Positions 17,661 to 45,273 of a DNA stretch of 47,064 nt are shown here, piece by piece (the stretch's first letter is position 1; every line of letters begins with the position of its first letter). The position numbers and the translations under genes were made by a program. The DNA is from Phycisphaerales bacterium JB064 (GTDB taxonomy: Bacteria; Planctomycetota; Phycisphaerae; Phycisphaerales; UBA1924). The notes under the pieces were generated by a model. That model had not been told where the DNA came from and did no database searches. It saw nothing but the letters and a program-made list of their open reading frames with translations. The stretch covers positions 1 to 47,064 of the forward strand of contig JBITAB010000092.1 of the NCBI GenBank assembly GCA_044439825.1, read 5' to 3'.

Positions 17661-17671
17661 AGGAGTGGTTG

Positions 17672-18307: not shown

Positions 18308-18310
18308 GCC

Positions 18311-23242: not shown

Positions 23243-23832
23243 TGGAAGTCGAAAGTGGTGTTGGTGGGTATGGATCGCACGCATCGGAAGAAAAGATTCT
23301 GTTTGATCGCATGATGAATATGCTTCTGCAAGAAGAAGGCCAAGGTGGGAACTGTTCGCAGAGGATCGAACGCCTTCAGACAAAGGCCGAGGAAATGTCG
23401 AGGTCTGGCATGTCTATGGATCTGCGATTCCTCGGCGGACTCGCCTTGGCTGGTTTTGCAAGGTTTATGATTCACTGTGATCGACAGTTGGACCGTATTC
23501 ACGTTGACAACCAGACAAAGCGAGCATGGCTAGACAGGAAGGTTAAGGGTGGAGGCGTCCCATTGTGGTACGACAACGACGACCGTTACGAGCATGAGAT
23601 GGATGCGATTCATCACGGTCGTTGCGAAGCTGCTTATCGCCGTGGGTTTCAACAAGGTATGGTTTGCGCGCAAGGCATTCTCAAGCACATGGGGTTAGAC
23701 GGTGCTGCGGCAAGACTTGATTACCCGGCCAAGAACTTGGCAGAGTCCATGCGATTTGACGGCAAGCCGCACACAGACTACATGAACGAAATTGCTGCCA
23801 AAACCCTTGGCGTTCCGTGGGGTGACGAGTGA
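23242..23832 (+). CDS. hypothetical protein, first gene of glyco-island 1 (AT-richer codon usage)
   Basis: Track ORF 23239..23832. The ATG at 23242 overlaps the portal stop (TGATG). It has visibly more A/T-ending codons than its neighbours. Confidence 0.65.
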   Translation: MEVESGVGGYGSHASEEKILFDRMMNMLLQEEGQGGNCSQRIERLQTKAEEMSRSGMSMDLRFLGGLALAGFARFMIHCDRQLDRIHVDNQTKRAWLDRKVKGGGVPLWYDNDDRYEHEMDAIHHGRCEAAYRRGFQQGMVCAQGILKHMGLDGAAARLDYPAKNLAESMRFDGKPHTDYMNEIAAKTLGVPWGDE

Positions 23833-24572
23833 TTGCCAGTGTTGTGACGACGTACAACCGTCCTGAGCAGTTGGCCAAGACGCTGCCGCAGATTGCGGCG
23901 TTGGGCGCGCCGGTTCTGGTGGTGGATGATGGGAGTGACGCCCGCCTTCACGCCGAAGGCGACAAGGTCAACGCTTCACATGGATTCCGAGTGCATGTTG
24001 CATGTTGTGATTGTGGCATTGAGCACTACATCCGGCTACACAGCAATCGCGGCCTCGCCTGCGCCCTGAACATCGGCCTGTCCTACTGGCTGGCCGACCC
24101 CGAGGTCGAGTTCATCAGCGTGTTCCAGGACGACTGCGACATCGACCCGGACCTGCACCGGGTGATGCTCGAAGTGTGCCGCTCGTTCGACCGCGACGCT
24201 CGAACCCTGTTTACGGGCTTCGACGCCATCGAGCATGGCAAGGGGCATCTGCAGGCCGTTCAAGGGATCGAGGTCTACGAGAAGCAGACCGGCGGCGGCG
24301 TCCACCTATTCGGGCGTCGGCACGTCTGGGAAAGCCTCATGCCGATCCCCTCGCTCGGCGTCGGCCTGCCGCGTGACGGCATGGGCAGCCGAGTGGACTT
24401 CAACCTGACCAGCCATGCCCGAGGCGGCGCTGTGCCCCTGCTGTGCGTGCCCGGACTCGTGAGCCATCGCGCGTGGAAGGGCGAGGATTCGACGTGGTGC
24501 CGATCCGATCGCGTGTGCGGCAAGGATGGCCCGCTCGATCGCAGCGCCATCAAGGGCTGGGTGCCGGCATGA
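23829..24572 (+). CDS. family-2 (GT-A) glycosyltransferase
   Basis: The N-terminus reads VIASVVTTYNRPEQL...VLVVDDGSD and is followed by a DXD-like FQDDCDID. The GTG start overlaps the upstream stop (GTGA). Confidence 0.8.
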   Translation: MIASVVTTYNRPEQLAKTLPQIAALGAPVLVVDDGSDARLHAEGDKVNASHGFRVHVACCDCGIEHYIRLHSNRGLACALNIGLSYWLADPEVEFISVFQDDCDIDPDLHRVMLEVCRSFDRDARTLFTGFDAIEHGKGHLQAVQGIEVYEKQTGGGVHLFGRRHVWESLMPIPSLGVGLPRDGMGSRVDFNLTSHARGGAVPLLCVPGLVSHRAWKGEDSTWCRSDRVCGKDGPLDRSAIKGWVPA

Positions 24573-24772
24573 TGCAGTTCTTTATCGCGGCGTCATTCTT
24601 GTGCTGGTCTATATGGTTTTTCGTTGGGACGCTGCGCATCTTGACGGGCAAGTACGAAAGGCGTATTGACGAAGTGTACGCGCTTGCCAAACACTGCTTT
24701 TGCGCCCACGCCGCAGGCCTGTTACTAGCTCTGGTGACGCTTGCAGTGCAACAACTTGAGGCGTTGACATGA
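24569..24772 (+). CDS. small 2-TM membrane protein
   Basis: This is the inner part of track ORF 24443..24772. The ATG at 24569 overlaps the GT2 stop (ATGA). Hydrophobic segments are FFIAASFLCWSIWFFVGTL and AAGLLLALVTLAV. Confidence 0.6.
   Translation: MMQFFIAASFLCWSIWFFVGTLRILTGKYERRIDEVYALAKHCFCAHAAGLLLALVTLAVQQLEALT
24752..24761 (+). promoter_or_regulatory. near copy of the CAACTTGAGGA box (CAACTTGAGGc) on the plus strand
   Basis: 10 of 11 positions match. It lies 7 nt upstream of the ATG at 24769. Confidence 0.6.
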
Positions 24773-25545
24773 CCGTGGTATTCGGCCCCTACGTCGGCGA
24801 GTTCGGCTGGGAGGTTCGCGCCTGGGCTCCGCACGTCTACGCGCGTGTGGTTCGGATGCGTGTTGCCGGCGACCAGACGCCGGTGACGATCATCGCCAAG
24901 GAGGGCAGCCGCGCGCTGTACGAGCCTGCGCTGGCGCTCAAGGGCGTGGAGTTCTGCACGCGCGAGGACTGGCCGAAGGAGCCTGCCGAGTACATGCACC
25001 TGCACCATCCCGGCGCGCAGCGAGCATGGGAGGAGCGCCTGGACGAGCAGACTTCGCTGTTAAAGATCGCGGCGATCCGTCCGAAGCCTGGGCTTGCCTT
25101 TGCCGAGTCGTGTCTGGAGGACATCAAGAAGCATGGGTATGAGGCCAACCCAACAACGCAATCTGGCTACATGATTGCGATATGCCGGCGAGACCGCGCT
25201 GACCTTGCGCCTGAGCGCAATTACCAACGGTGGGACGACCTGAGGGATCATCTGGTTGACACGGCGACGCCTCACAATTGGGTAAGCAAGACATGGTCTT
25301 GCGTTGCCCTTGACGATCTTCGATCCGCGCCAGTTGCGGTCGGCGAATCCTCCGGCCCCATGCACCTTGCCATCACGGCGGGCGTGCCGATCGTGACGTG
25401 GGGCAAGCCTGGGACACGCGAGAAGTACGAGCACGATAACTGGCATGGCGTGCCGATGCGCATCATCGACGGGCTCCAGCCCGAACCACAGGCCATCGCT
25501 GACGCGGTGGCGGATTTGCTCGAGGAGGTCTCTGGTGGGGTATAA
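24769..25545 (+). CDS. GT-B glycosyltransferase, family-9 (heptosyltransferase)-like
   Basis: VAVGESSGPMHLAITAGVPIVTWG matches the nucleotide-sugar-binding motif of GT9 enzymes (DSGPMHLAAA.G.P). It has an ATGA overlap with the upstream gene. Confidence 0.7.
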   Translation: MTVVFGPYVGEFGWEVRAWAPHVYARVVRMRVAGDQTPVTIIAKEGSRALYEPALALKGVEFCTREDWPKEPAEYMHLHHPGAQRAWEERLDEQTSLLKIAAIRPKPGLAFAESCLEDIKKHGYEANPTTQSGYMIAICRRDRADLAPERNYQRWDDLRDHLVDTATPHNWVSKTWSCVALDDLRSAPVAVGESSGPMHLAITAGVPIVTWGKPGTREKYEHDNWHGVPMRIIDGLQPEPQAIADAVADLLEEVSGGV

Positions 25546-26134
25546 CCCGGTGGAATATTGGAAGGGTCGGTACGAGCAGCAGGGCCCGGTCTACGTGGCC
25601 CGGCATGGCATGACGCCCGAGCAGGCGGCCGGACAGGCCGGGATGTTCAGGAAGGCCATCGATCGGACGCGGGGCCGAGTGCTGGACTACGGGTGCGGCG
25701 TCGGCCGTCTGGCTGCCTACCTGTCCGAGACGGCGCACGAGTACGTCGGCATGGACATCTGCGAGGGTGCGCTGGAGTTCGCCCGCAAGGCGCACGGGTC
25801 CAACAACGTCCTCTTTGAGCCCGCATCAGGGCTGCATCTGCTGCCCGATGGCTACTTCGACCTGACGGTCTGCTGCACGGTCCTCCAGCACGTCCCTGAC
25901 GAGGACATCGACCGCGTAATGGCGCAACTCAAGCGCGTCACCAAGGGCCGATTCTGCATCATCGACAGCGCCGAGTTCGACAGCACGGCCGAGCATATGT
26001 TCCCGCGCGAGCCCCGAGAGTTCACGAGATGGCTCGACCTGCAAGAGCCGATCAAGCGGATGCTCGACGTGGACCATCGCGGCTCGCACTACGTCCTGAC
26101 CGGACGCGCCGCAACCGACATCGTGGCCGCTTAA
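25535..26134 (+). CDS. class I SAM-dependent methyltransferase
   Basis: This is the inner part of track ORF 25445..26134. The GTG at 25535 is preceded by GAGGAGG. Motif I is VLDYGCGVGRLAAYL, with later motifs YVGMDI and CCTVLQHVPDEDI. Confidence 0.85.
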   Translation: MGYNPVEYWKGRYEQQGPVYVARHGMTPEQAAGQAGMFRKAIDRTRGRVLDYGCGVGRLAAYLSETAHEYVGMDICEGALEFARKAHGSNNVLFEPASGLHLLPDGYFDLTVCCTVLQHVPDEDIDRVMAQLKRVTKGRFCIIDSAEFDSTAEHMFPREPREFTRWLDLQEPIKRMLDVDHRGSHYVLTGRAATDIVAA

Positions 26135-30537: not shown

Positions 30538-31095
30538 ATGCCCGCCGCAACCATCGTCCACGACCTTGCCGAGTCCGGAGCGCTTCGGCTCAAGGCGTAC
30601 CAGTACATCCTGGACGTTCCAGCAACCAATGGCACGATCGCCATGAACGCCAGCGACAGCACGACCGTGCTCGTGCCCAAGGGCGGCATGATCTGGAAGA
30701 TGAAGGTTGACCAGATCAACCGATCGAGCGCCATCACTCTTGCCGGCACGAGCGCCACGCGACTGATCCTCTACCGCGATGCTGCGACCGACGACGTTCT
30801 GGCGCAGGCCACAGCCATCTCGGACGGCGCGACGATCGCGCCTGGCGCTCTCAGCTACATCCATGCCGCCGGCATGTTCAACCCTGGCCCTGCCAACGTG
30901 GCCCTGGCGGACGTGACGCCCGCGACGCTCAAGCTCGGAACCGGCCTGATTACCAGCGGCGTCCTCGGCCTTGCCTCTGGCGCTGGCTTCAGCAAGATCA
31001 GCACCGGCCTTGCCAACGCCCTGCGCGTGCAGTTCTGGGTGGCCATCCCCTACTACAACGCGGACCCGGACAAGGCCGATCCCAAGTGGTCATAA
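30538..31095 (+). CDS. tail adaptor-like protein (T7 gp11 position and size)
   Basis: The protein is 185 aa and lies immediately before the nozzle-like gene. The call is inferred from gene order only. Confidence 0.45.
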   Translation: MPAATIVHDLAESGALRLKAYQYILDVPATNGTIAMNASDSTTVLVPKGGMIWKMKVDQINRSSAITLAGTSATRLILYRDAATDDVLAQATAISDGATIAPGALSYIHAAGMFNPGPANVALADVTPATLKLGTGLITSGVLGLASGAGFSKISTGLANALRVQFWVAIPYYNADPDKADPKWS

Positions 31096-31104
31096 GGGGG
31101 CCCC

Positions 31105-32784
31105 ATGCCGCGTGCGCGACCGGGCTTCCCGCTCAAGGGCGCGACCGATAGGTCGTCGTTCCAGGACAATCCTGACGGCTATGCGCCCATCAGCTACATG
31201 CTCAACGTGCGCCCACGCGACGTGTACGAGGGGCGCGAGCGCGGCGGGCAGCGCCCCGGCCTTGTCGGTCTTGCGACGGCCAGCGGGGAGGCGTGGGGTC
31301 AGGTCGGCGAGGGCCCGATCCAACTGATCCAGGCCATCGAGCGCCCCGCGCGCATCGAGGGCTACGAGATCGGCGTCTGCCGAGACGCCTTCGCCTTCTT
31401 CGACAGCCGCGACGGCGCGACGCAGTTGCAGGGCAACCTGTACGTCGCCAAGGGCAAGACGACCACTCGGCCCGGCGTGATCCGCAACGCCGACATCGGC
31501 GACGCCCTGGCCTTTTCTGGGCGCGGCAGCCCGGCCAGCCGCATCTACGTCGAGGCGGCGGCCTTCTACGGCGAGAACGCCATCTTCGGGGCGCTCAACG
31601 AGCTTCCGGGCAACGAGGCGGGCAGCACCAGCGAGCACTTCCTGTTCAAGACCTACTTCGCGGCCGGTCGTCCGGGCGGCGGCTTCGGAAGCCCGCAGTG
31701 GGACGTGGTCAGCCAGACTGGCCTGCCGCTCGACGGCGCGACGCCCGTGCAACCCTACCCGTGCGACGCGGTGTGCGCCTTCCCTCCGGGCATCGGTTAC
31801 GCCAGCGACAACCTCAACGGGGTCGGCTTCGCCTCGCTGAGCAACCCCCTGAGCGTCAACGGCGAGCGTGACTGGGCCTATCTGGCGGCGTTCGACCTGA
31901 CGGCCAGCAGCAACCACCTCATCACCTACGTCAACCCACGCTTCGAGGAGAAGGGCCCAGGCGGCGCTCCCGAGAAGCCCGGTGCGCAGGAGATCCGGGC
32001 GCTGCGCGCGGTCGTTCAGGGCGGCCGGGCCTACGTCTACTTCACCTATCGCACCAACCCGATGGTGCACAGCAAGATCGGCCGCTTCGACGTGACCGAC
32101 TTCACGACCGCCAGCGGCACGTTCTCGCACGACGGCCTGAGCGGCGCGGTGCAGATCGACGGGTCCGGGCTCGACGAGACGGCGATCAACTACCCCCGCG
32201 GTGCGACGCCCGGCGACGTGTGCGTGGCTCCGAACGGTGCGGTCTACTTCACGAGGTCCAGCACGGGCTACGGGCGCGTGGGCACGGCCCTGGAGATCGA
32301 CCCGCTCAACCCCGCCCGCGTCCCCGTCACCGTGGTCAAGATCAACCCCACAGGCACGGCGTTCGAGTGGGAGATCGGCTGGCGGGCGACGGGCTCGCCG
32401 CAGCTTGACGGCCTGGGCGTGCGCGAGCCGGAAGTGACCTGCTGTGATTGCGACGCCACGGGCGTGTACGTCGGCAGCCACGACGGGCATGTGGCCAAGC
32501 TCGACCAGCAGGACGGTCGCGTGCGATGGGAGAACCAGATCATCTCTGGCTCCAACCGCATCACCGGCTGCCGGATCGATCCTGCCGATGGCAACCCCAT
32601 CTTCTCGGGCGGGTCGTCGCTGCTGGGCTCTGGCACGACGAACTTCGCCTTTGCGATCAAGGTGGACCGGACCAACGGACGGCAGATGTGGATTCTGCCT
32701 GCGGGCGGCGCTCCTGAGATCGGGCGCTGCATCGACATCCACCCGACGAGCGACCTGTTCCTGATCGGGAAGTACAGCAAGTAA
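31105..32784 (+). CDS. tail nozzle-like protein with beta-propeller repeats
   Basis: The protein is 559 aa. The N-terminus FPLKGATDRSSFQDNPDGYAPISYMLNVRP...GGQRPGL resembles the N-terminal pattern of T7 gp12-type tail tubular proteins. The C-terminal half has PQQ/propeller-like repeats (VYVGSHDGHVAKLDQQDGRVRWE). Confidence 0.55.
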   Translation: MPRARPGFPLKGATDRSSFQDNPDGYAPISYMLNVRPRDVYEGRERGGQRPGLVGLATASGEAWGQVGEGPIQLIQAIERPARIEGYEIGVCRDAFAFFDSRDGATQLQGNLYVAKGKTTTRPGVIRNADIGDALAFSGRGSPASRIYVEAAAFYGENAIFGALNELPGNEAGSTSEHFLFKTYFAAGRPGGGFGSPQWDVVSQTGLPLDGATPVQPYPCDAVCAFPPGIGYASDNLNGVGFASLSNPLSVNGERDWAYLAAFDLTASSNHLITYVNPRFEEKGPGGAPEKPGAQEIRALRAVVQGGRAYVYFTYRTNPMVHSKIGRFDVTDFTTASGTFSHDGLSGAVQIDGSGLDETAINYPRGATPGDVCVAPNGAVYFTRSSTGYGRVGTALEIDPLNPARVPVTVVKINPTGTAFEWEIGWRATGSPQLDGLGVREPEVTCCDCDATGVYVGSHDGHVAKLDQQDGRVRWENQIISGSNRITGCRIDPADGNPIFSGGSSLLGSGTTNFAFAIKVDRTNGRQMWILPAGGAPEIGRCIDIHPTSDLFLIGKYSK

Positions 32785-32793
32785 GGAGTTGAT

Positions 32794-33210
32794 ATGCGAA
32801 AGCTGACGGATTGTGACGTTGAAGGCAAGTGCGCGAACCTGGACGTGTACGTCCATGATGAGCCTGGGCAGGGTGGCGCATGCCATCTGTACAGCATCGG
32901 CGGGTATGACACCAGCACCAACCCATCGAGCGACGCTGTGGAGTTCAGGAGCCCGCCCATCGACCGGACTGGTACGTCGATCTTGTTCCAGAACGGGCCA
33001 ATCGACGAGGACGGCAACGGTGCCAACGGCATCCAGATCGAGAACCTGCTGGCCATCGTGCAGGATCGCCTTCGTGGCTTCCAGAGCGGCAAGTACGCCT
33101 GCGACGCCAACCAGATCGCGCTCGACCACACGACCGCCGCGCTCGAAGCCCTCAAGGCTCGCACACGCGAGCGCCTGGGCCGTGGCGTCGAAGGAACCCA
33201 CACGGTTTAA
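32794..33210 (+). CDS. small conserved phage protein
   Basis: Track ORF with SD TAAGGAGTTGAT-ATG. The motif is FQNGPIDEDGNGANGIQIENLLAIVQDRLRGFQSGKYAC...RGVEGTHTV. Confidence 0.7.
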   Translation: MRKLTDCDVEGKCANLDVYVHDEPGQGGACHLYSIGGYDTSTNPSSDAVEFRSPPIDRTGTSILFQNGPIDEDGNGANGIQIENLLAIVQDRLRGFQSGKYACDANQIALDHTTAALEALKARTRERLGRGVEGTHTV

Positions 33211-33213
33211 CCC

Positions 33214-35496
33214 ATGACCTGGACGCGCGTGACCGGCCAGCCCAAGGTGCTCCTGCACAACGGGTCGGGTCGTGACGTGGCCATTTCCGGGATGCAGAGC
33301 GGGAGCGGCGAGTTCGATCCCGACCAGATGCTCCGGGACATGGGCACGTATCTGGTGACGGCCGGGCGCGCGGACCACCTGATCCGTTGGGCGCTGCACA
33401 CCAGCGAGGACGGACGCCAGTGCATCGAGGCCGGGATCTTCGAGGGCAATTCGCTTGACGCTGCCGATTCTGGAGCGCGCGGCAGCGGCTTGTACGCGGC
33501 CATCGTCCGAGTCAACTGGAACGACGCGCTCTCGGAGGCGGACGCATGGACTGTCCTGGCGGCGTCGAGCGGCGATCTGGTGTCGATCAACGCGATCGGC
33601 AGCACGACGACCAACGACGTGGAGATCGAGCCACGCATCGAGGCGGGCAACATCCACGTTCGGATCTATGGCCAGCGTGTGACCCCGGACTACGCCCTGA
33701 CGCCAGCCGACTACCCCGAGTTCACGGACTTCGGGGTGGTGACCGAGGTCGACCAGGCGACCGCCAAGTTTGGCCGCGTCTGCGGGCTGGACGCGATCAC
33801 AAGCAGCGCCGGGCAGATCATCTGCATCATCTCGAATGGCGTGCTCTACGTCAGCGAGGGGTTCGGGACGCCGGTGCGCAAGGGCCCGATCTGCCGGGGA
33901 TCGGACACCCAGCCGAGCGCGACGGTCTACGACGCCCGACTGTTCGTGGTGGACGGTCAGGTCGCAAACTACTACGACGCCTCCGACGACACGATCTACC
34001 CGTGGGGGCCGGTGGATGCGGACTACTGGGACTCGACGACGACGGGCTACCTGCCGGGAGCGCCGGTGGACCCGAGCGGGGCGGATCGTCGCCAGATCGG
34101 GGTGACGACGGCGACGGTGGTGACGACCCACCTGAACCGCGTCATGCTCGCCGGGATGCCCGAGGCCCGCGCTGACGTGTGGGCCAGCGCCGTGGGCGAC
34201 CCCTTCGACTACAACCTTGGCGCTCTGACCGATGGACGCGCATGGCGTCTGGCGACCGAGTTGTCCGCCGGCCAGCCGCGCACGCCCATCACCGGCATGT
34301 GGTCCTACGCCGACGACTACCTCCTGATCGGCGGTCTGGGCGACATCACGATCCTGCGCGGCGATCCGGTCTTCGACCAGGGCCGCGTTGGCCTCGTGAC
34401 GACCGACGCCGGGATTCCGCACAAGACGGCCGCCTGGGTCAGCGATCGCGGCGTGGTCTACGCCGTCACCGAGCAGGGCCTTGCCGTCATCGCCGGCGAC
34501 CAGATCACCTACCCGTCCAAGGACGTGCTCACGCACACCATCGCCAAGCTGAGCAACGCCAACCGCTACCGCACGCGGATCGTGCACGACGCCGACCGCT
34601 ATGGCGTGCTGATCGCCTTCGACCCGGTGGCGGCCACGGAAGTCTCCACGCACCTGTGGTGGGACGTTCGCACGATGGGCTTCTTCCCCGAGCAGTACCC
34701 CGTGGACATGGGACCGACCGCCCTGGCTCGCGTCGGCAACCGGATGCTGCTGGGCTCGAGGGACGGCTACGTCTACGAGTTCTCCGACGCGTCCAAGGCC
34801 GACGAAACGCCCGATGGCGGGCAGGCGATCGATTCCTACGTCCCCCTCACGCTCATGCACAACACCGAGGACCCGTCGCGGGCCATGCGCCTGACGACGT
34901 GGACGCTGGTGAAGGACACGCGCAGCGACGAGATCGACGTGTACGTGCAGGGTGCCAACACGGCCGAGTTCGCCTACCGCAGCCCCAAGATCAAGATCGC
35001 CACGCGCACGAGCGGATCACGGACGGTGCGCACGCGGCCGGTCAGGGCCCAGAGCGTGGTCATCTTCCTCCACAGCCCGGTGCAGGACGGGGCGAGCTCG
35101 TGGGCGTTCGAGAACTGCGTCGCCGAGTGGATGCCCGGTGGCGTCGTGCTCGAATCCATCACCGAGAGCTATTGCGGCGCGTCCGGCAGCGGGTCGGGAT
35201 CTGGCTCGGGCAGTGGGTCTGGTTCCGGGTCGGGCTCGGGCAGCGGCGGCGGGTTCGGCGACCCTGGCGCTGGATCGGGCTCGGGGTCTGGCTCTGGCGA
35301 CCCCATCGAGAGCGGTAGCGGGTCGGGCGTGTTCGGCCCGATCCCAAGCGGCTCGGGCGGCACGACGCCGGGCGGGGCGGTCTTTGGCCCCATCAGCAGC
35401 GACATCATCTCGCCCAACACCACAGGCGTCGGCGACAACGCCGGCGCGAGCGGCGCGGCGGGCAGCGGCGAGTTCGGCTGGGGGATGAGTTCATGA
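33214..35496 (+). CDS. large tail/virion protein with C-terminal (SG)n tail
   Basis: The protein is 760 aa. The C-terminal 100 or so residues are SGSGSG... and G/S/P-rich. Its stop overlaps the start of the next gene (ATGA). Confidence 0.75.
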   Translation: MTWTRVTGQPKVLLHNGSGRDVAISGMQSGSGEFDPDQMLRDMGTYLVTAGRADHLIRWALHTSEDGRQCIEAGIFEGNSLDAADSGARGSGLYAAIVRVNWNDALSEADAWTVLAASSGDLVSINAIGSTTTNDVEIEPRIEAGNIHVRIYGQRVTPDYALTPADYPEFTDFGVVTEVDQATAKFGRVCGLDAITSSAGQIICIISNGVLYVSEGFGTPVRKGPICRGSDTQPSATVYDARLFVVDGQVANYYDASDDTIYPWGPVDADYWDSTTTGYLPGAPVDPSGADRRQIGVTTATVVTTHLNRVMLAGMPEARADVWASAVGDPFDYNLGALTDGRAWRLATELSAGQPRTPITGMWSYADDYLLIGGLGDITILRGDPVFDQGRVGLVTTDAGIPHKTAAWVSDRGVVYAVTEQGLAVIAGDQITYPSKDVLTHTIAKLSNANRYRTRIVHDADRYGVLIAFDPVAATEVSTHLWWDVRTMGFFPEQYPVDMGPTALARVGNRMLLGSRDGYVYEFSDASKADETPDGGQAIDSYVPLTLMHNTEDPSRAMRLTTWTLVKDTRSDEIDVYVQGANTAEFAYRSPKIKIATRTSGSRTVRTRPVRAQSVVIFLHSPVQDGASSWAFENCVAEWMPGGVVLESITESYCGASGSGSGSGSGSGSGSGSGSGSGGGFGDPGAGSGSGSGSGDPIESGSGSGVFGPIPSGSGGTTPGGAVFGPISSDIISPNTTGVGDNAGASGAAGSGEFGWGMSS

Positions 35497-36395
35497 ACCT
35501 GCTGGAGAACCCCGCAAACGGCATCGGCGACGCGATCCTGTTCGCGTGGCTGGCGGTGCACGCCAAGGCCGCCGGGATCGACGTGGGCCTGTACATGGAC
35601 CGCCACCACGACTGGGTGGCCCCTGTCGTCGGCGTGGACGCACTGCTGACCTGCCGCTCGGGCGAGGCATCCCGCGATCGCACCAAGGCGTGGGAAGCCA
35701 TGTGCACGGCCGAGAAGCTGATGCGCAACCGCGGCGAGGCCAAGCACCGCCTGGACGCCTGGGCCAAGCACTTCGGATTGGAGCTCGACGGCTTCGAGCG
35801 CCCGGTGTGCGAGATCCACCCGCACGATCAGGCGTTCGCCGACGAGTGGTGGGCACGGACGGCGACGGACACCAAGGTCGCCAGCGACGCCCTGCGCGTG
35901 CTCGTGTTCCCGGCCTGTGCCTGGGCCCAGCGCCGCTGGCCGAAGGCGTACTGGATCGACGTGGCCGGGAGCCTCAAGGAGTGCGGGCACGCCGTCCTGG
36001 CGATGGTCGAGAGCGACGCGGACCAGAAGCATTGCGGCTTCCCGTTCGGGCTCTGGGGCACGACGCCTGGCCAGTGCTGGGCGATCGTGGCCGGTGCCGA
36101 CGTGGTGCTGAGCGCCGACACGGGGCCGGCGCACCTCGCGGCGACGCTGGGCAAGCCCGTGGTGGTGGCGCAGGGGCCGACGCGCGCGGAGTGGGTGTTC
36201 GGGCACGCGGCCGACACCATCACGTCGGTGAGCGGTTCGAGGCCGTGCACGGGCTGCGATCTGGAGACCGAGAAGGGGTTTGCCGACCACTGCCTGCACG
36301 GGTGCCAGAGCCTCATGGACCTGACGCCGCGCGTGCTGCTGGCGGCGGCCCTCGAGGTCTGCGCCGAGGCCAAGGCGGAAAGGGCCATCGCGTGA
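35493..36395 (+). CDS. GT9 (heptosyltransferase)-like glycosyltransferase 1
   Basis: Motifs are an N-terminal NGIGDAILFAW, the donor-binding VVLSADTGPAHLAATLGKPVVV, and a C-terminal Cys motif PCTGC...C.HGCQSLMDL. Confidence 0.8.
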   Translation: MNLLENPANGIGDAILFAWLAVHAKAAGIDVGLYMDRHHDWVAPVVGVDALLTCRSGEASRDRTKAWEAMCTAEKLMRNRGEAKHRLDAWAKHFGLELDGFERPVCEIHPHDQAFADEWWARTATDTKVASDALRVLVFPACAWAQRRWPKAYWIDVAGSLKECGHAVLAMVESDADQKHCGFPFGLWGTTPGQCWAIVAGADVVLSADTGPAHLAATLGKPVVVAQGPTRAEWVFGHAADTITSVSGSRPCTGCDLETEKGFADHCLHGCQSLMDLTPRVLLAAALEVCAEAKAERAIA

Positions 36396-37327
36396 CGCAC
36401 ACCAGCCACCGCACCGACCACGGCCTGACGGTCATCGACGCCTGCTACGACGGGCTCGGGGACGCCATCACCTACGCCTGGATCGCGCGCACGGCGGCCG
36501 ACAACGGCGAGCCCGTGGCGGTCAACTTCGGGCGCTGGCACGACGTGGCGGTCCTGCTGGACGTGGAGCCGTGGGCGACCTTCGAGCACAGCGATCGCTA
36601 CTACACCCAGCGCAGCGGGTTCAGCAAGCACCACCTGGGCGAGATCGAGGCGGTGTTCGACTGGCATCGTGACGGCGGCGACATGCCCACACGCTTCGCC
36701 TCCTGGTGCGCCTTCTTCGGGGTCGATGGTGGCCAGCCGTCGCGGCCCATGTACGTCGAGGACGAGCGCGACGCGATCGAGGCGGAAGCCTCGTGGAAGG
36801 CCGTGCGCGAGGGCTTGCAGAAGGCGGGCAAGGCCGCCGATGGGCCGGTGGTGGTCCTGTCCCCGATCGCCAATTCCGCCGAGCGGTCGTGGCCGATGGC
36901 TCGCTGGGGCGAGCTGGCCAAGACGATGATCGAGGCCGGGTGCGTGGTGGCCGTGGTCGTGCCCGATGGCGTGGACCCCAAGCACTTCCCGGCGGTGATC
37001 GGGACCGAGCGACTGGGCTCGCTGTTCGCCATCGTGCAGAGGGCCGATCTGGTCATCAGCGGCGACTCCGGGCTCGCGCACGTTGGCGGGACGCTGGGCG
37101 TGGCGACGCTCGTGGTCGCGGGCGGGACCGACCCTGCCGTGGTGTTCAGCCACATGGGCGAGGTCGTGACCTGGGTGGGCAACGACGAGATGGCCTGCAC
37201 GGGCTGCCACTGGGACACGGACAAGGGCTATCGGCGGGCGTGCCAGAGCGGCTGCCAGAGCCTCCTGACGCTCTCGGTCGATCGCGTGATGGACGCGGCC
37301 GATGCGAGGCTGGAGGTGCGCCGATGA
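36392..37327 (+). CDS. GT9 (heptosyltransferase)-like glycosyltransferase 2
   Basis: This is the last 311 codons of track ORF 35546..37327. The GTG at 36392 overlaps the upstream stop (GTGA). Motifs are DGLGDAITYAW, LVISGDSGLAHVGGTLGVATLVV, ACTGC...CQSGCQSLLTL. Confidence 0.8.
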   Translation: MTHTSHRTDHGLTVIDACYDGLGDAITYAWIARTAADNGEPVAVNFGRWHDVAVLLDVEPWATFEHSDRYYTQRSGFSKHHLGEIEAVFDWHRDGGDMPTRFASWCAFFGVDGGQPSRPMYVEDERDAIEAEASWKAVREGLQKAGKAADGPVVVLSPIANSAERSWPMARWGELAKTMIEAGCVVAVVVPDGVDPKHFPAVIGTERLGSLFAIVQRADLVISGDSGLAHVGGTLGVATLVVAGGTDPAVVFSHMGEVVTWVGNDEMACTGCHWDTDKGYRRACQSGCQSLLTLSVDRVMDAADARLEVRR

Positions 37328-37707
37328 GCAGGGCTGGCGCAGCGCACGGCGGGGCGGACCCGAGGGACACGAGTGCGATTCGTCGGACGCTGCGCCAGTT
37401 GCAGAAGGGCGTCGAGGACAACCTGTTCTCGTCGGCGGGCGGCACGGTCAGCCTGACCTTCGCAGACAGCCCGCACGACCTGAAGCGCCGGACGCTCATG
37501 GCGTTTGCCGACACGACCGGCGGGCAGGTGGTGGTCAACCTGCCGACTTCGGACAGGTCCATGAAGGTGCTCGTGGTGCAGACGGACGGGGCGAACGGCA
37601 TCGTGCTGGCGGCCCAGAGCGGCCAGACCATCGACGGCGTGGCCAGCGCGTCGGGCGACAGCAGGTGGGTAGCGACTCCCGGCAACGGGGCTTGGCACAC
37701 GATTTAG
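37324..37707 (+). CDS. hypothetical virion-associated protein
   Basis: This is the inner part of track ORF 36706..37707. The ATG at 37324 overlaps the upstream stop (ATGA). Confidence 0.65.
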   Translation: MSRAGAAHGGADPRDTSAIRRTLRQLQKGVEDNLFSSAGGTVSLTFADSPHDLKRRTLMAFADTTGGQVVVNLPTSDRSMKVLVVQTDGANGIVLAAQSGQTIDGVASASGDSRWVATPGNGAWHTI

Positions 37708-37716
37708 GAGGCGGAC

Positions 37717-38688
37717 ATGAGTTGGGCAGTTGCAGGCGGACTCGCGGCCGGAGGGCTGGCGAGCGCGTTCGGTTCGCCCGGTGGGTTCTCCAGCAAGCAG
37801 TACATCGCGCCGGGCTTGAGCGATCGGAACGCGCACAACCTGAGCATGGACGCCTACCGGCGCTCGCAGATGGCGCTGTACGGGCAGGCGTACGACCCGC
37901 ACGGCACGAATCCCTACGCGGGCGTACCGAGCTACACCGGGCAGATGCAGGGCTTGATCGGGCAGGCCCAGCAGGCCGGGCAGGGCATCTACGACCTGTA
38001 TGGGCAGGCCGATCGCCGGATGCAGGGCGCGTTTGGCCAGCAGGACCGGCTGTACCAGCAGGCGGGCGGCGACGCCCAGCGTGCGGCACAGCGTGCGACG
38101 CAGGACGCCATGAGCCTGTACAGCGGCTATGGGCAGGGCGCACAGCAGAGCATCCAGGACGCCTACCAGCGGCAGATCGGCAACATCGACCAGGGCCGGG
38201 CGATGGCTCGCACACGCGGCAACTTCTCGGGCGACGACATGCTCGCGGCCGGGCAGCGGCGTGAGGCGATGCAGGGGTACAACCAGTCGATGACCGGGCT
38301 GGCTGGCCAGCAGGCGCAGCTCATGGGCGGCGCTCTCGAGCGTGGCCGCTCGCAGGAGCTTGGCGTCCGGCAGGGCTACGACCAGCAGTACATGAACGCC
38401 CTTGGCCAGCGTCCGGGCGCGCAGGCCGGGATGGCCCAGCTTGGGATGCAGGCCCGGCAGAACCAGTTCGGGCTCCCGGCGCAGTTGCAGCAGCAGTTGT
38501 ACGGGCAGCAGTTCCAGACGCAGATGAGCCCGCAGATGCTTTACCCGACGCACGCGCCCACGTTCATGCTGGGCGGCGGCGGGTACCAGCCGCAGAGCAA
38601 CCCGCTCAGCCAGTTCGTGAGCGGCGCTGGCGGCTTGCTGGCGGGCTACGGCGTGAACCAGATGATGTACCCGCAAGGGGGCCGCTAA
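37717..38688 (+). CDS. Q/G-rich internal virion protein candidate
   Basis: Track ORF. It has an N-terminal hydrophobic segment followed by Q/G/A-rich low-complexity sequence. Confidence 0.65.
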   Translation: MSWAVAGGLAAGGLASAFGSPGGFSSKQYIAPGLSDRNAHNLSMDAYRRSQMALYGQAYDPHGTNPYAGVPSYTGQMQGLIGQAQQAGQGIYDLYGQADRRMQGAFGQQDRLYQQAGGDAQRAAQRATQDAMSLYSGYGQGAQQSIQDAYQRQIGNIDQGRAMARTRGNFSGDDMLAAGQRREAMQGYNQSMTGLAGQQAQLMGGALERGRSQELGVRQGYDQQYMNALGQRPGAQAGMAQLGMQARQNQFGLPAQLQQQLYGQQFQTQMSPQMLYPTHAPTFMLGGGGYQPQSNPLSQFVSGAGGLLAGYGVNQMMYPQGGR

Positions 38689-39998
38689 TGCCGTGGGCAA
38701 ACTTCCTTGGTGGCTTCCAGACCGCACTCGATGCCGGTGCGCGCCAGCAGCAGTTGTTCCAGCAGCAGCAGGCGATGCAGATCCAGCAGGAGCAGTTCCA
38801 GCAGCAGATGATGCAGCGGCAGGCCGAGGAGGCGTTCCGCCAGCAGATGGCCCAGCAGGGATTCGGGCTGGATCAGGCCCGATTCGGGCTCCAGCAGGAC
38901 CAGTTCGCCTACGGACAGCAGCGCGATCAGGTCGGCGATCAGTTCCGCAACCGCGCCTTCGACTACCAGCAGCAGCGCGACACCGTGGGCGATCAGCAGT
39001 TCGATCAGCGCATGGCCTATCAGGCCGGCCGGGACTACATCGGAGATCAGCAGGTGGCGGCGCGGTTCGGGCTCGCGCAGGATCAGGCCAACTTCAACAT
39101 GGGCATGGCTCGCAACCAGGACGAGCGCGCTGCGGCGCTGCACCCCGAGCAGCTTCGCGCCATCCAGATCGGCAACCAGATCGACATGATGAAGGCCCAG
39201 CAGATGGGCATGCCCGCCAGCGGGTTCCCAGAGGACGCCAACGTGCACCGGCTGGCGATGGAGGCCAGCAGGCAGGCGGCGCAGGCGGCGGCCGACGCCA
39301 TCATGAAGAAGTACGACGGCGTGATGCTCGACCCGCGCAAGGGCCAGAACTCGGTCTTTGACGTGATGAGCCCGCAGGATCAGGCGGCGTACACACAAGC
39401 GATCGGCGATGCCGAGCGATTCGCGGCCGGCATCCAGCGGCTCGGCGGACTCTCGCCCTACATGCAGCAGCCCCAGCAGCAGGTCGTGCCCGGCATGGAG
39501 ACGGTCGGCACTGGCTCGCAGGGCGGCATCATGGACTTCTTCGCGCAGGAGGCCGGGCAGGCACCGCAGCCGTCGCCCGGACCCGGCGTGGTCTACGAGC
39601 GCACGCCACATGCCAACAGCTACGGCCCGCCAGTTGTGCCGCAGGAGCGACCGCGCGAGCCCGAGATGGGCGGCGTGAGCGCCCCGCCCGCCGAGGCCCC
39701 GGTCAACGACACGCCCAGCCAGAGCTTGTTCCAGCGCCTCACGTCGATCAGGACATCGCAGGACATCCTGGCAGCACCCGACGCAGGCCCGTCGATCATG
39801 GAGCAGTACGAAGACCTCCTGCGCCAGATCATGAGCAACAACGACTGGACGATGGAGCAGCGGTTGAAGCTGGCCAGCGGCGTCAATGAGCGCGTCAGCA
39901 CGCTCGTGGCCAACGCTCTGCCGTCCGCTTCGGACGCGCTCGGGCCCATGATGGAGATGACCAACCGGCGTCGCCAGATCGTGAGCGAGTACCAGTAA
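38688..39998 (+). CDS. Q-rich internal virion protein candidate
   Basis: Track ORF. It has repeated Q..RD.VGDQ units, and its start overlaps the upstream stop. Confidence 0.65.
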   Translation: MPWANFLGGFQTALDAGARQQQLFQQQQAMQIQQEQFQQQMMQRQAEEAFRQQMAQQGFGLDQARFGLQQDQFAYGQQRDQVGDQFRNRAFDYQQQRDTVGDQQFDQRMAYQAGRDYIGDQQVAARFGLAQDQANFNMGMARNQDERAAALHPEQLRAIQIGNQIDMMKAQQMGMPASGFPEDANVHRLAMEASRQAAQAAADAIMKKYDGVMLDPRKGQNSVFDVMSPQDQAAYTQAIGDAERFAAGIQRLGGLSPYMQQPQQQVVPGMETVGTGSQGGIMDFFAQEAGQAPQPSPGPGVVYERTPHANSYGPPVVPQERPREPEMGGVSAPPAEAPVNDTPSQSLFQRLTSIRTSQDILAAPDAGPSIMEQYEDLLRQIMSNNDWTMEQRLKLASGVNERVSTLVANALPSASDALGPMMEMTNRRRQIVSEYQ

Positions 39999-44962: not shown

Positions 44963-45273
44963 CTGACCATGAATTGCAGATCCAGAACGACATCCTGAGC
45001 AAGATGGCGCTGCTGGTACGAATCGGATGGGTGGTCGCCAGTGGCATCGTCGTGATCCTCTTGTTCGTGATTGGCGTGGCGTTCGCCGCTGGCGTGTGGG
45101 CGGCCGAGACAAAGAAGGACATTGAGTCCATCGCCAAATCCGACGAAAAGCAGGACGCGATCATCGAGAGAATCGACGCCTCGTATTTTCGCAAGGACCA
45201 CATTCCGCTTGCGGCGCGTGAGTTCGCGCGTGAGTTCGCAAGCGAGTGGGCCAAGGTGTACAAGGGGAACTGA
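44959..45273 (+). CDS. membrane protein (TM helix plus coiled coil)
   Basis: Track ORF with an ATGA overlap. The hydrophobic stretch reads LLVRIGWVVASGIVVILLFVIGVAFAAGVWA. Confidence 0.7.
   Translation: MTDHELQIQNDILSKMALLVRIGWVVASGIVVILLFVIGVAFAAGVWAAETKKDIESIAKSDEKQDAIIERIDASYFRKDHIPLAAREFAREFASEWAKVYKGN

What the first reader, a model, noticed from the sequence alone, without database searches (positions are those of the whole stretch)
35493..37327. Two tandem GT9 (heptosyltransferase)-like genes embedded between tail and internal-virion genes
Genes 35493-36395 and 36392-37327 are paralog-like. Both carry G(I/L)GDAI N-terminal motifs, (S)xDxGxAH donor-binding motifs and a C-terminal CTGC...C..GCQSL Cys motif. 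They are joined to each other by GTGA, and to the upstream tail gene and the downstream gene by ATGA overlaps. Together with the 24769 gene, this element carries three GT9-like enzymes. GT9 enzymes normally build the LPS inner core from ADP-heptose. Three copies inside a phage morphogenesis operon suggests a multi-step heptose or other sugar chain built on a phage or host acceptor late in infection.
Basis: partly seen in the sequence, partly recalled or inferred. Interest (0 to 1): 0.68.

Follow-up and report, generated by a model that had tools for sequence, protein, structure and literature searches.

The report
Phage enzymes predicted to sugar-coat tail protein
Two neighbouring phage genes encode heptosyltransferase-like enzymes of a distinct, metal-finger-bearing subfamily that, across many unrelated phages and some bacteria, sits next to proteins carrying Gly-Ser/Gly-Thr repeats, so they most likely attach sugars to the phage's own tail protein rather than to bacterial lipopolysaccharide.

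Summary
The two genes are real, intact and translationally coupled as described. Both pass the Pfam GT9 threshold, give confident GT-B models (pLDDT 90.5 and 93.7), and match ADP-heptose transferases best (WaaF, WaaC, TibC). They are old paralogs (32% identity), both kept in every relative and under purifying selection. They fall far below the score cut-offs of the WaaC/WaaF/WaaQ family models.

They belong to a large, uncharacterised subfamily of short GT9-like proteins with an invariant C-terminal Cys4 knuckle. In this subfamily the gene sits next to a protein carrying G-S/T repeats: tail proteins, a nozzle, a capsid C-terminus, and DUF4214 proteins in Pirellulales genomes. In those genomes the ADP-heptose synthase HldE lies in the same cluster.

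In the window, the gene just upstream (33214-35496) ends in a 110-residue Gly/Ser tail with (GS)10 and (GS)4. My best reading (confidence 0.55) is virion protein O-glycosylation, probably heptosylation, of that tail. It works like TibC/AAH but is not a member of that family.

The "third GT9" at 24769 is only remotely GT9-like. No biochemical evidence exists.

The parts
33214..35496 (+). Tail-module protein of 760 aa and the predicted acceptor. The globular part has homologs only in related podovirus-like contigs. The C-terminal ~110 residues are a Gly/Ser-rich tail.
   Evidence: ORF. No Pfam, PHROG or PDB family was found apart from GS-linker hits. Orthologs in L004, L006, L007, L009 and L055 all carry the GS/GT repeat and are all followed directly by a Cys4-GT9 gene. 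It is the only protein in the window with an S/T/G-saturated segment.
35164..35493 (+). Gly/Ser-rich C-terminal tail of the tail protein (aa 651-760; 39 Gly and 28 Ser in 110 residues). It includes (GS)10 at 35185-35244 and (GS)4 at 35272-35295. These are the predicted O-glycosylation sites.
   Evidence: The repeat is written in mixed codons (GGC/GGG/GGA/GGT and AGC/TCG/TCT/AGT/TCC), so it is maintained at the protein level and not by DNA slippage. TRF sees only a 24-nt period with 81% matches.
35493..36395 (+). GT9-A, a 300-aa GT-B glycosyltransferase of the Cys4-GT9 subfamily. Its start overlaps the tail gene's stop codon (ATGA).
   Evidence: Pfam PF01075, 48.6 bits. AF2 pLDDT 90.5, pTM 0.90. 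Foldseek matches WaaF, 3tov, WaaC and TibC. Orthologs occupy the same position after the tail gene in L004-L008. dN/dS is 0.22.
35520..35531 (+). N-terminal G-I-G-D motif of GT9-A (G10, G12, D13). D13 is the putative catalytic base.
   Evidence: G12 and D13 are invariant in the 77-sequence family alignment (G10 is invariant in 40 sequences and nearly invariant in 77). The match to WaaC Asp13 and TibC Asp110 is inferred from position in the N-lobe (PMC4358343) and was not superposed.
36246..36305 (+). Cys4 knuckle of GT9-A (C252, C255, C267, C271; CTGCx11CxxxC). It lies between the last beta strand of the C-lobe and the C-terminal helix.
   Evidence: Invariant or nearly invariant in family alignments. 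Present in 150 of 157 proteins checked, nearly all of them top library hits. Absent at the aligned position of E. coli WaaF.
36392..37327 (+). GT9-B, a 311-aa paralogous Cys4-GT9 glycosyltransferase. Its GTG start overlaps the stop of A (GTGA), and its stop overlaps the next gene's ATG (ATGA). Cys4 knuckle at C269, C272, C284, C288 (37196-37255).
   Evidence: Pfam PF01075, 53.1 bits. AF2 pLDDT 93.7, pTM 0.91. Foldseek. Orthologs at 52-54% identity lie at a different genomic position in relatives. L008 has A followed by B, as in the window. dN/dS is 0.26.
37324..37707 (+). 127-aa gene of unknown function that follows the GT9 gene or genes in all relatives. It marks the conserved downstream boundary of the module.
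   Evidence: ORF overlap at ATGA. 128-aa counterparts follow GT9-A in L004, L005, L006 and L007. No family hit.
23829..24572 (+). GT2-family (GT-A) glycosyltransferase in a second glycosylation-type cluster between portal and scaffold. It possibly belongs to the same glycan pathway.
   Evidence: Pfam PF00535, E = 1.7e-8. A gene of matching size (243 aa) holds the same position in the TARA relative.
24769..25545 (+). 258-aa protein that is only remotely GT9-like (donor-motif region only). Probably a divergent GT-B enzyme, role unknown.
   Evidence: No Pfam or NCBIfam GT9 hit. hhalign probability 92.9% over 42 columns. 67% identical ortholog in TARA.
25445..26134 (+). SAM-dependent methyltransferase and candidate sugar O-methyltransferase. 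The ORF start as listed overlaps the previous gene, so the true start may lie further downstream.
   Evidence: Pfam Methyltransf_25/11, E = 1e-17. A matching methyltransferase gene lies at the same position in TARA.

Best explanation
GT9-A and GT9-B are cytoplasmic, late-expressed protein O-glycosyltransferases. They are most likely O-heptosyltransferases that draw on the host's ADP-heptose pool. They decorate the phage's own virion.

The proposed acceptor is the Gly/Ser-repeat C-terminal tail of the tail protein encoded immediately upstream (33214-35496). Translational coupling (ATGA, GTGA, ATGA) makes enzyme and substrate together.

One paralog, probably A because it always stays next to the tail gene, would put the first sugar on Ser hydroxyls of the (GS)n tract. 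The other paralog, B, would extend the chain or serve a second class of sites. B's acceptor-side N-lobe is only 24% identical to A's. The GT2, the divergent GT-B-like protein and the methyltransferase at 23829-26134 may finish or vary the glycan.

What is shown: gene integrity, GT9 family membership, GT-B fold, the conserved catalytic Asp and donor motif, the Cys4 knuckle, purifying selection, and the recurrent genomic coupling to G-S/T-repeat proteins and to HldE.

What is inferred: the acceptor, the sugar, the order of action of A and B, and the biological benefit (a hydrophilic glycan brush or shield on the tail).
For: 1. Enzyme identity. Pfam GT9 above threshold. AF2 models have pLDDT 90.5 and 93.7. 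The most significant Foldseek matches, and nearly all matches with TM above 0.5, are ADP-heptose transferases or GT9 proteins: WaaF 1psw, GT9 3tov, WaaC, and the protein heptosyltransferase TibC. TibC gives TM 0.56-0.61, at least as good as WaaC at 0.47-0.54.

2. A distinct subfamily. The family has an invariant GxGD motif, a DSGxxH motif and a C-terminal CxxC-x(8-14)-C-x3-C knuckle. The knuckle is in 150 of 157 proteins checked, nearly all of them top library hits. It is absent at the aligned position of WaaF. The predicted N-lobe has few strands. TibC also has a four-stranded N-lobe and a Cys4 iron finger inserted late in the C-lobe (PMC4358343).

3. Coupling to G-S/T repeats. All 17 ORFs carrying (G[ST])>=4 across the fetched loci lie within 4 kb of the GT9 gene and on the same strand. 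None lies in 248 kb of farther flank. Most are the gene directly upstream.

4. The repeat proteins are unrelated to each other. They fall into at least 9 families: the window-type tail protein, a T7-type nozzle PF25675 (L012), a siphovirus tail protein after the tape measure (L010), DUF4214 proteins, and others.

5. The capsid-linked clade. In 11 of 11 loci tested, the gene upstream of the GT9 is a protease plus major-head fusion. Where its C-terminus was read, it ends in a conserved G[ST]G[ST]xR tail.

6. Overall count. 39 of 52 upstream genes carry the motif, against 11 of 457 control ORFs.

7. Donor sugar. In Pirellulales chromosomes the clusters are [GSx84 protein]-[HldE]-[3 Cys4-GT9] and [GT9]-[HldE]-[GT9]-[methyltransferase]-[GTx137 protein]. 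HldE scores 450-457 bits on NF008454.

8. In the window, the GS tail is the only such segment. It is conserved in orthologs and written in mixed codons.

9. Both paralogs are retained in every relative sampled, and dN/dS is 0.22-0.26.

10. Precedents. BAHT genes sit next to their serine-modified substrates (PMC4358343). O-linked oligo-heptose and a GT/S glycosylation motif occur on a Planctomycete S-layer protein (10.1101/2020.12.03.409086). Capsids of mycobacteriophages Che8 and Rita are reported to be glycosylated (as reported in PMC11256854).
Against: No experiment supports the model: there is no glycoproteomics, no enzymology and no isolate.

By sequence the enzymes are closer to LPS heptosyltransferases than to TibC. 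TibC is not detected by profile search.

GS/GT tracts are also ordinary flexible linkers, and glycosyltransferase 'morons' often sit beside tail genes. Adjacency alone therefore does not prove an enzyme-substrate relation.

The locus counts are not phylogenetically independent.

The HldE-GT9 clusters in Pirellulales could be LPS-core clusters that merely lie next to a repeat protein.

B orthologs in two relatives are not next to any repeat protein.

The equivalence of the Cys4 knuckle to the TibC iron finger was not tested by superposition, because no model coordinates were available.

The host is unknown, so whether it makes ADP-heptose is also unknown.
Confidence: 0.55

Rival explanations
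1. Host-envelope modification. The enzymes add heptose or another sugar to the host's LPS core or another envelope glycan. The purpose would be to block superinfection or to stop progeny adsorbing to debris, as classical prophage seroconversion glycosyltransferases do.
For: GT9 is canonically the LPS inner-core heptosyltransferase family. By sequence the best solved relatives are WaaF and WaaC. GT9 plus methyltransferase genes in P. aeruginosa prophages are tabulated under 'Viral defense proteins' (PMC10449497). HldE-GT9 clusters in Pirellulales genomes could be LPS-core loci. Accessory glycosyltransferases often lie near tail genes (general knowledge).
Against: Scores against the WaaC/WaaF/WaaQ equivalog models are 12-32 bits, against cut-offs of 134-569. 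The acceptor-side N-lobe is shortened and divergent. The subfamily gene is consistently the immediate downstream neighbour of a virion structural gene in three different morphogenesis contexts: capsid, nozzle and tail. Those neighbours share a G-S/T motif although they are unrelated. In the window the genes are translationally coupled inside the late structural operon of a phage in which no integrase was noticed among the ORFs scanned.
Confidence: 0.2
2. Virion glycosylation, but on a different acceptor. The enzymes glycosylate another phage protein such as the capsid, working with the GT2, GT-B-like and methyltransferase cluster. The GS tail of the upstream protein would be only a flexible linker or spacer.
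For: A second glycosylation-type cluster lies between portal and scaffold, and genes of matching size and order lie there in the TARA relative. In the large sister clade the partner is the capsid protein. GS tracts are generic linkers (PDB hits are all engineered linkers).
Against: No other window protein has an S/T/G-rich tract or a G[ST]G[ST] C-terminus. GT9-A keeps its position directly after the GS-tailed gene in all relatives, while the other glycosyltransferases sit 10 kb away. The GS/GT association recurs with unrelated proteins.
Confidence: 0.12
3. DNA hypermodification. The GT-B enzymes glycosylate modified bases such as 5hmC in phage DNA, as T4 beta-glucosyltransferase and newly described phage GT-B enzymes do. 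Some of those enzymes add heptose.
For: Phage GT-B enzymes that install heptose or Kdo on 5hmC exist (bioRxiv 10.1101/2023.12.21.572611).
Against: Those enzymes resemble T4 beta-GT, BshA and MshA rather than GT9, and they cluster with C5-methyltransferase, 5mYOX or ThyS genes. The Pfam scan of the ten largest early-region ORFs found only RusA, RecT-like, YqaJ and a DnaA_C HTH, and no base-modification genes. T4 beta-GT is absent from the listed top 50 Foldseek matches of either model. The genes lie in the structural operon.
Confidence: 0.03
4. Chance or non-functional genes. The two ORFs would be decaying acquisitions with no current function.
For: None specific. High-GC DNA generates many long spurious ORFs.
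Against: GC3 is 0.94 for A, with a coding-type codon-position pattern. Both genes have a Pfam hit above threshold. Catalytic and Cys4 residues are conserved. Orthologs at 49-85% identity are intact. dN/dS is 0.22-0.26.
Confidence: 0.02

Closest known systems
Bacterial autotransporter heptosyltransferases (BAHT: TibC, AAH)
   Same: Both have a GT-B catalytic core related to WaaC. TibC is among the best structural matches (TM 0.56-0.61). Both have a four-Cys metal knuckle late in the C-lobe, a reduced N-lobe and a catalytic Asp near the start of the N-lobe. Both are soluble enzymes without obvious signal or membrane segments (from reading the sequences; not tested with a predictor), and BAHTs modify their substrate in the cytoplasm (general knowledge). 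In both cases the enzyme gene lies next to the gene of a Ser-rich acceptor protein. BAHTs modify Ser residues flanked by Gly (PMC4358343).
   Different: No detectable sequence similarity (TibC is not found by profile search). The phage enzymes are about 100 residues shorter, and the GxGD motif begins at residue 10, which leaves no room for the ~97-residue N-terminal beta-barrel. The Cys spacing differs (CxxC-x11-C-x3-C against CxxC-x15-C-x11-C). Dodecamer formation and the beta-hairpin thumb are unknown. The acceptor is a disordered dipeptide repeat on a virion protein, not a beta-helical autotransporter passenger. The gene order is substrate then enzyme.
LPS inner-core heptosyltransferases WaaC, WaaF and WaaQ (GT9 proper)
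   Same: Same Pfam family (PF01075). Same GT-B fold, N-terminal GxGD motif, (K/R)xWP motif and D(S/T)GxxH donor motif. They are the best sequence-level matches among solved structures.
   Different: Scores are far below every equivalog cut-off. The proteins are 30-50 residues shorter, with a reduced N-lobe. They have an extra Cys4 knuckle that is absent in WaaF. The genomic context is virion structural genes, not LPS genes.
Mycobacteriophage virion glycosylation (Che8, Rita; Freeman et al. 2023, as reported in PMC11256854)
   Same: [quoted passage not shown] The capsid-linked sister clade found here has the same logic.
   Different: In the related phage Maravista the putative glycosyltransferase genes lie near the 3' end of the genome, not beside the substrate gene. 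The hosts are Gram-positive-type actinobacteria. No GT9 or Cys4 enzymes and no heptose are reported there, as far as I could check.
Serine-rich-repeat adhesin glycosylation (GtfA/GtfB on SRRPs) and Ser-Gly proteoglycan attachment sites (serglycin)
   Same: Dipeptide Ser-X repeats serve as dense O-glycosylation acceptors for a dedicated GT-B enzyme encoded nearby (general knowledge). A GS-repeat stretch of the L010 tail protein gives a weak Pfam Serglycin hit.
   Different: Different glycosyltransferase families (GT4/GT8 or xylosyltransferase), different sugars and different organisms. This is an analogy only.
O-glycans of anammox Planctomycete S-layer proteins
   Same: O-linked oligo-heptose chains and a GT/S attachment motif, with methylated sugars, occur in a phylum that dominates the genomic hits of this subfamily.
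   Different: The enzymes responsible there are unknown. No link to this subfamily has been shown.

Membership tests
Pfam PF01075 / CAZy GT9 (sequence family) | Match to the family HMM above the curated gathering score | tested here: met
   A scores 48.6 bits and B 53.1 bits against a cut-off of 22. The 24769 product has no hit.
Pfam PF01075 / CAZy GT9 (sequence family) | GT-B fold with two Rossmann-like lobes | tested here: met
   AF2 pLDDT 90.5 and 93.7, pTM 0.90 and 0.91. Foldseek probability 1.00 to WaaF, 3tov, WaaC and TibC. The N-lobe has fewer strands than usual.
Pfam PF01075 / CAZy GT9 (sequence family) | N-terminal GxGD catalytic Asp and C-lobe (K/R)xWP and D(S/T)GxxH donor motifs | tested here: met
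   D13, W149 and H214 are invariant in the 77-sequence family alignment, and R147, P150 and D209 are nearly invariant. The motifs align to the WaaF and WaaC motifs. Catalytic roles are inferred from WaaC and TibC.
LPS heptosyltransferase I/II/III (WaaC/WaaF/WaaQ equivalogs) | Score above the NCBIfam equivalog cut-off | tested here: not met
   The best scores are 30.3 bits (A) and 32.5 bits (B) against cut-offs of 134.6-569.
LPS heptosyltransferase I/II/III (WaaC/WaaF/WaaQ equivalogs) | Transfer of heptose to Kdo2-lipid A or Hep-Kdo2-lipid A | not testable with these tools
   Needs enzymology or complementation.
LPS heptosyltransferase I/II/III (WaaC/WaaF/WaaQ equivalogs) | Location in an LPS-core gene cluster | tested here: not met
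   In the window and in phage relatives the neighbours are virion genes. Only the Pirellulales chromosomal loci have HldE nearby.
BAHT (TibC/AAH) protein O-heptosyltransferases | More than about 50% sequence similarity to TibC/AAH (PMC4358343) | tested here: not met
   TibC (4rap/4rb4) is not found by HMM profile search of PDB sequences at E up to 10. Structural identity is 12-15%.
BAHT (TibC/AAH) protein O-heptosyltransferases | N-terminal beta-barrel domain of about 97 residues | tested here: not met
   A begins its catalytic GxGD motif at residue 10 and is 300 aa long. B begins it at residue 21 and is 311 aa long. Models show no such domain.
BAHT (TibC/AAH) protein O-heptosyltransferases | Four-Cys iron finger inserted in the C-lobe | tested here: inconclusive
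   An invariant Cys4 knuckle lies between the last C-lobe strand and the C-terminal helix. Its spacing from the donor motif (~43 residues) is similar to that in TibC (~35-40). No superposition and no metal identification were possible.
BAHT (TibC/AAH) protein O-heptosyltransferases | Beta-hairpin thumb and dodecameric ring | not tested
BAHT (TibC/AAH) protein O-heptosyltransferases | Gene adjacent to that of a Ser-rich protein substrate; Ser O-heptosylation | tested here: inconclusive
   Adjacency to G-S/T-repeat proteins is strongly recurrent. The modification itself is untested.
Phage virion glycosylation systems (Che8 type) | Glycans covalently attached to virion proteins by phage-encoded glycosyltransferases | not testable with these tools
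   Needs virion glycoproteomics. There is genomic inference only.

The most novel reading that the evidence does not exclude
Cys4-GT9 enzymes are a widespread, unrecognised family of protein O-heptosyltransferases whose sequon is the G-S/T dipeptide repeat. Phages of several morphotypes would use them to grow oligo-heptose brushes on tails, nozzles and capsid C-termini. Planctomycetes would use them, together with a dedicated HldE, on giant (GS)84 and (GT)137 surface proteins. The window phage carries an initiating and an extending paralog. This would be the first virion glycosylation system described for phages of Gram-negative-type hosts, and a new enzyme-sequon pair usable for glyco-engineering.
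Probability: 0.4. Interest if true: 0.82.

Novelty: new variant of a known kind. Interest (0 to 1): 0.7.

Why it matters
Phage virions were long regarded as unglycosylated. The only well-studied exception known to me concerns mycobacteriophage capsids, where the glycans alter antibody production and binding (as reported in PMC11256854). If these enzymes do glycosylate G-S/T repeats on tail, nozzle and capsid proteins, three things follow:

1. Virion glycosylation would be much more widespread, reaching uncultured marine and soil phages of several morphotypes.
2. A very common "linker" sequence in phage tail proteins would turn out to be a modification site. That bears on receptor binding, stability and immune visibility.
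3. A compact, soluble ~300-aa enzyme with a simple repeat sequon would be a candidate tool for cytoplasmic protein glycosylation. It would also offer a candidate enzyme family for the O-linked heptose chains seen on Planctomycete surface proteins.

It also corrects the default annotation "ADP-heptose:LPS heptosyltransferase" that sources give to some of these proteins; most carry no functional name.

Tried and rejected
Searches that found nothing:
- GenBank phages: blastn of 33000-40000 found only a GS-repeat hit in a Gordonia phage. tblastn of A, B and a capsid-clade GT9 found nothing. No isolate relative exists in that collection.
- IMG/VR scans with single proteins found nothing. Only the family alignment worked.
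- PHROGs has no family for A, B, the tail protein or the 24769 product.
- PDB sequence searches with the tail protein or its family profile returned only engineered GS linkers, so its structural role (fibre, nozzle accessory or other) remains unassigned.
- Literature searches for phage GT9, tail glycosylation or GS-repeat glycosylation found no description of this system.

Steps that were blocked:
I used the second job for GT9-B instead, so the fold of 24769 is untested.
- Freeman et al. 2023 could not be read.
I also could not retrieve a TibC sequence. The Cys4-knuckle/iron-finger equivalence rests on position and spacing only.

Hypotheses rejected:
- DNA glycosylation, because no base-modification genes were found and the fold matches are of the wrong type.
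- Pseudogenes, because of conservation and dN/dS.
- Recent tandem duplication. A and B are sister clades that split before the sampled relatives diverged, and B has moved.

Full report
**1. The observation**

The window is a complete 47-kb, 60-70% GC contig of a podovirus-like phage. It has a T7-type large terminase (19728-21248), an SU10-type adaptor (29439-30527), a beta-propeller tail protein (31105-32784) and a 1654-aa probable internal-virion protein.

ORFs 35493-36395 (GT9-A, 300 aa) and 36392-37327 (GT9-B, 311 aa, GTG start) are on the + strand. The ATGA, GTGA and ATGA overlaps with the upstream tail gene, with each other and with the downstream gene can be read directly.

The proteins are 32% identical end to end. 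Both exceed the Pfam Glyco_transf_9 gathering score. Both carry the reported GxGDAI, SxDxGxAH and CTGC...C..GCQSL motifs.

GC3 is 0.94 for A. dN/dS against the closest relative (L008, 85% identity for A) is 0.22 for A and 0.26 for B. These are real, selected genes.

The 'third GT9' at 24769-25545 fails every family test. It resembles GT9 only over 42 residues around the donor motif.

**2. Fold and nearest relatives**

I built a 77-sequence alignment from the protein searches. AlphaFold2 then gave pLDDT 90.5 and pTM 0.90 for A, and pLDDT 93.7 and pTM 0.91 for B.

In Foldseek against the PDB, the most significant matches, and nearly all with TM above 0.5, are ADP-heptose enzymes or GT9 proteins. 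These are WaaF (1psw), the Veillonella GT9 3tov, WaaC and the protein heptosyltransferase TibC. TibC gives TM 0.56-0.61 and rmsd ~6 A. WaaC gives TM 0.47-0.54.

By sequence the enzymes are GT9 (E ~4e-10 to WaaC, WaaF and 3tov), and TibC is not detected. Against NCBI's equivalog models for heptosyltransferases I, II and III they reach 12-32 bits, where 134-569 bits are required. They are therefore GT9-fold enzymes, but not counterparts of the LPS-core enzymes.

**3. A distinct subfamily**

An exhaustive profile search found 185 cluster representatives at E < 1e-30 and about 12,000 at E < 1e-10. Of the 157 proteins checked, nearly all of them top hits, 150 carry a C-terminal CxxC-x(8-14)-C-x3-C motif.

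In family alignments the four Cys are invariant or nearly so. So are the N-terminal G-x-G-D (D13 in A), R147/W149/P150, and D209/H214.

E. coli WaaF has no Cys at the aligned positions. Ordinary GT9 genes picked up at low score mostly lack the motif.

The proteins are short (270-320 aa), and the modelled N-lobe has few strands. TibC likewise has a four-stranded N-lobe. It also has a Cys4 'iron finger' (C339/342/358/370) inserted late in the C-lobe, which is needed for assembly and substrate recognition (PMC4358343). I could not superpose the knuckle on the iron finger, so equivalence is a lead and not a result.

No homolog is detectable in 50,697 GenBank phage records. BFVD holds structurally similar proteins of uncultured phages with automatic names such as 'RfaF' and 'Aah/TibC'.

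**4. Relatives of this phage**

The relatives are a 52-kb TARA Oceans scaffold and contigs from three other runs. In all of them the GT9-A ortholog sits directly after the ortholog of the 760-aa tail gene and before a 128-aa gene.

The GT9-B ortholog (52-54% identity) sits elsewhere in TARA and SRR19514070, upstream of the DnaA_C-HTH protein and the terminase. In the closest relative, L008, B follows A as in the window.

A neighbour-joining tree makes the A and B clades sisters. The duplication is therefore old, both copies are retained in every sampled relative, and one copy has moved.

**5. The key finding: the neighbour carries G-S/T repeats**

The tail protein upstream of GT9-A ends in a 110-residue tail with 39 Gly and 28 Ser. 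It includes (GS)10 and (GS)4. It is the only such segment in the window.

The repeat is written in mixed Gly and Ser codons, so it is kept at the protein level. The TARA, L006, L009 and L055 orthologs keep it.

I fetched 128 further loci with the family alignment (32 viral, 16 genomic, 80 metagenomic), on top of the 11 found earlier by exact-protein look-up. I then scanned all six frames.

All 17 ORFs with (G[ST])>=4 lie within 4 kb of the GT9 gene, on its strand. None lies in the 248 kb of farther flank. Most are the gene immediately upstream.

After masking the repeats, these proteins fall into at least nine unrelated families:
- the window-type tail protein;
- a T7-type nozzle (PF25675, E = 8e-93, in L012);
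- a siphovirus tail protein downstream of the tape-measure gene (L010);
- DUF4214 proteins;
- several proteins without any family.

A large soil clade lacks long repeats. There the GT9 gene follows a head-protease plus major-capsid fusion in 11 of 11 loci tested. That capsid protein ends in a conserved ...G[ST]G[ST]xR tail.

Over all loci, 39 of 52 immediately upstream genes carry the motif, against 11 of 457 other same-strand ORFs. Eight of those 11 are repeat proteins lying a little further from the GT9. These counts are not phylogenetically independent. The recurrence across unrelated partner proteins is the stronger argument.

**6. The donor sugar**

In two Pirellulales chromosomes the neighbours are SecA, RecQ and ZnuA, so these loci are not prophages. 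The subfamily forms these clusters:
- [(GS)84 DUF4214 protein]-[HldE]-[three Cys4-GT9];
- [Cys4-GT9]-[HldE]-[Cys4-GT9]-[methyltransferase]-[(GT)137 DUF4214 protein].

HldE, the bifunctional ADP-heptose synthase, scores 450-457 bits on NF008454.

This fits the GT9/TibC structural matches and makes ADP-heptose the most likely donor. It also shows that several paralogous Cys4-GT9 genes in a row are the rule in these loci (L045-L048), which fits stepwise chain building.

The window encodes no HldE among the ORFs scanned, so it would depend on the host pool. The genomic hits are mostly Planctomycetota. That hints at the host range of the family but does not identify this phage's host.

**7. Mechanism proposed**

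The tail protein, GT9-A and GT9-B are made together late in infection through translational coupling. This much is shown by the sequence.

The following steps are inferred:
- A transfers heptose from ADP-heptose to Ser hydroxyls in the disordered GS tail, with D13 as the base.
- B has an N-lobe only 24% identical to A's, against 36% for the donor-binding C-lobe. It extends the chain or serves other sites.
- The Cys4 knuckle helps hold the extended acceptor or mediates oligomerisation, as in TibC.
- The GT2, the GT-B-like protein and the methyltransferase at 23829-26134, which have counterparts of matching size and order in TARA, may add or methylate further sugars.
- The product would be a hydrophilic glycan brush on the tail.

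Precedents:
- BAHT enzymes heptosylate Ser next to Gly in substrates encoded beside them.
- A Planctomycete S-layer protein carries O-linked oligo-heptose and a GT/S glycosylation motif.
- Capsids of mycobacteriophages Che8 and Rita carry covalently attached glycans.

**8. Rivals**

- Host LPS modification remains possible (0.2). GT9 enzymes normally do this, and the HldE clusters could be LPS loci. This does not explain the strict placement after virion genes in three different assembly modules, or the shared motif on unrelated neighbours.
- A different virion acceptor is possible (0.12).
- DNA glycosylation is unlikely (0.03). No base-modification genes were found, and known DNA GT-B enzymes resemble T4 beta-GT, not GT9.
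- Non-function is excluded by conservation.

**9. Verdict**

The genes are members of GT9 by sequence and fold. They are not members of the WaaC/WaaF/WaaQ families or of BAHT. They probably work like BAHT.

The recurrent coupling of a Cys4-GT9 subfamily to G-S/T-repeat proteins and to HldE is, as far as my searches show, undescribed. It is directly testable by co-expression and mass spectrometry.

I rate it a new variant of a known kind, with interest 0.70 and confidence 0.55 in the proposed mechanism.

Noticed in passing
window 23239-26134: A second glycosylation-type cluster lies between the portal and scaffold genes: a 197-aa unknown, a GT2 glycosyltransferase, a divergent GT-B-like protein (24769) and a SAM methyltransferase. 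Genes of matching size and order lie at this position in the TARA relative (the 24769 ortholog is 67% identical). The listed methyltransferase ORF overlaps the previous gene by 100 nt, so its true start is probably further downstream.
   Followed up: partly
L045:2-6178 and L048:5533-12206 (Pirellulales MAG contigs): Chromosomal clusters contain HldE (ADP-heptose synthase), two or three tandem Cys4-GT9 genes, a methyltransferase, and DUF4214 proteins with enormous (GS)84 or (GT)137 tracts. This looks like a cellular version of the same enzyme-substrate module.
   Followed up: partly
L013, L015-L043, L062-L105 (soil and viral contigs): In a large clade of Cys4-GT9 genes, the gene always follows a fused head-maturation-protease/major-capsid gene whose product ends in a conserved KAxxG[ST]G[ST]xR tail. 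This suggests capsid C-terminal glycosylation in Mu-like or HK97-like soil phages.
   Followed up: partly
L001:10001-10930 (TARA) against window 17669-19075: The GT9-B ortholog of relatives sits between a 205-aa gene and the DnaA_C-HTH protein upstream of the terminase. The window has counterparts of those neighbours by size, order and one shared domain, but no GT9 there. The gene has therefore been relocated next to GT9-A in the window lineage, or moved away in the others.
   Followed up: partly
window 37717-39998: Two consecutive proteins (323 and 436 aa) are very rich in Gln and Gly/Met, with low-complexity QQ-type stretches. They precede the 1654-aa protein. They are probably ejection or internal-virion proteins, but they have no family match.
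   Followed up: no
L009:14477-20840: A related podovirus-like contig encodes a protein of more than 3000 aa with an ART-PolyVal (ADP-ribosyltransferase) domain, at the position of the window's 1654-aa internal-virion protein.
   Followed up: no
Foldseek results for both models: Subunits of the chloroplast NDH-PSI supercomplex (9grx chain 1, 7wff chain a) appear among the GT9-like structural matches, with TM ~0.5-0.59. This suggests a GT9-derived fold in a photosynthetic complex subunit.
   Followed up: no
window 31090-34860 (-), 39620-45112 (-) and others: Very long antisense ORFs (1256 and 1830 aa) overlap the real + strand genes. They are typical high-GC artefacts and have no coding-type GC3/GC2 pattern.
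   Followed up: yes
L047:11365-13266 and L050:5539-7287: Other Ser/Gly-rich repeat types lie within 0.5-2.5 kb of Cys4-GT9 genes that lack a strict (G[ST])4 neighbour. Examples are SSGSSSASG repeated many times, and GGSGG-type tracts. The acceptor motif may be broader than G-S/T.
   Followed up: no
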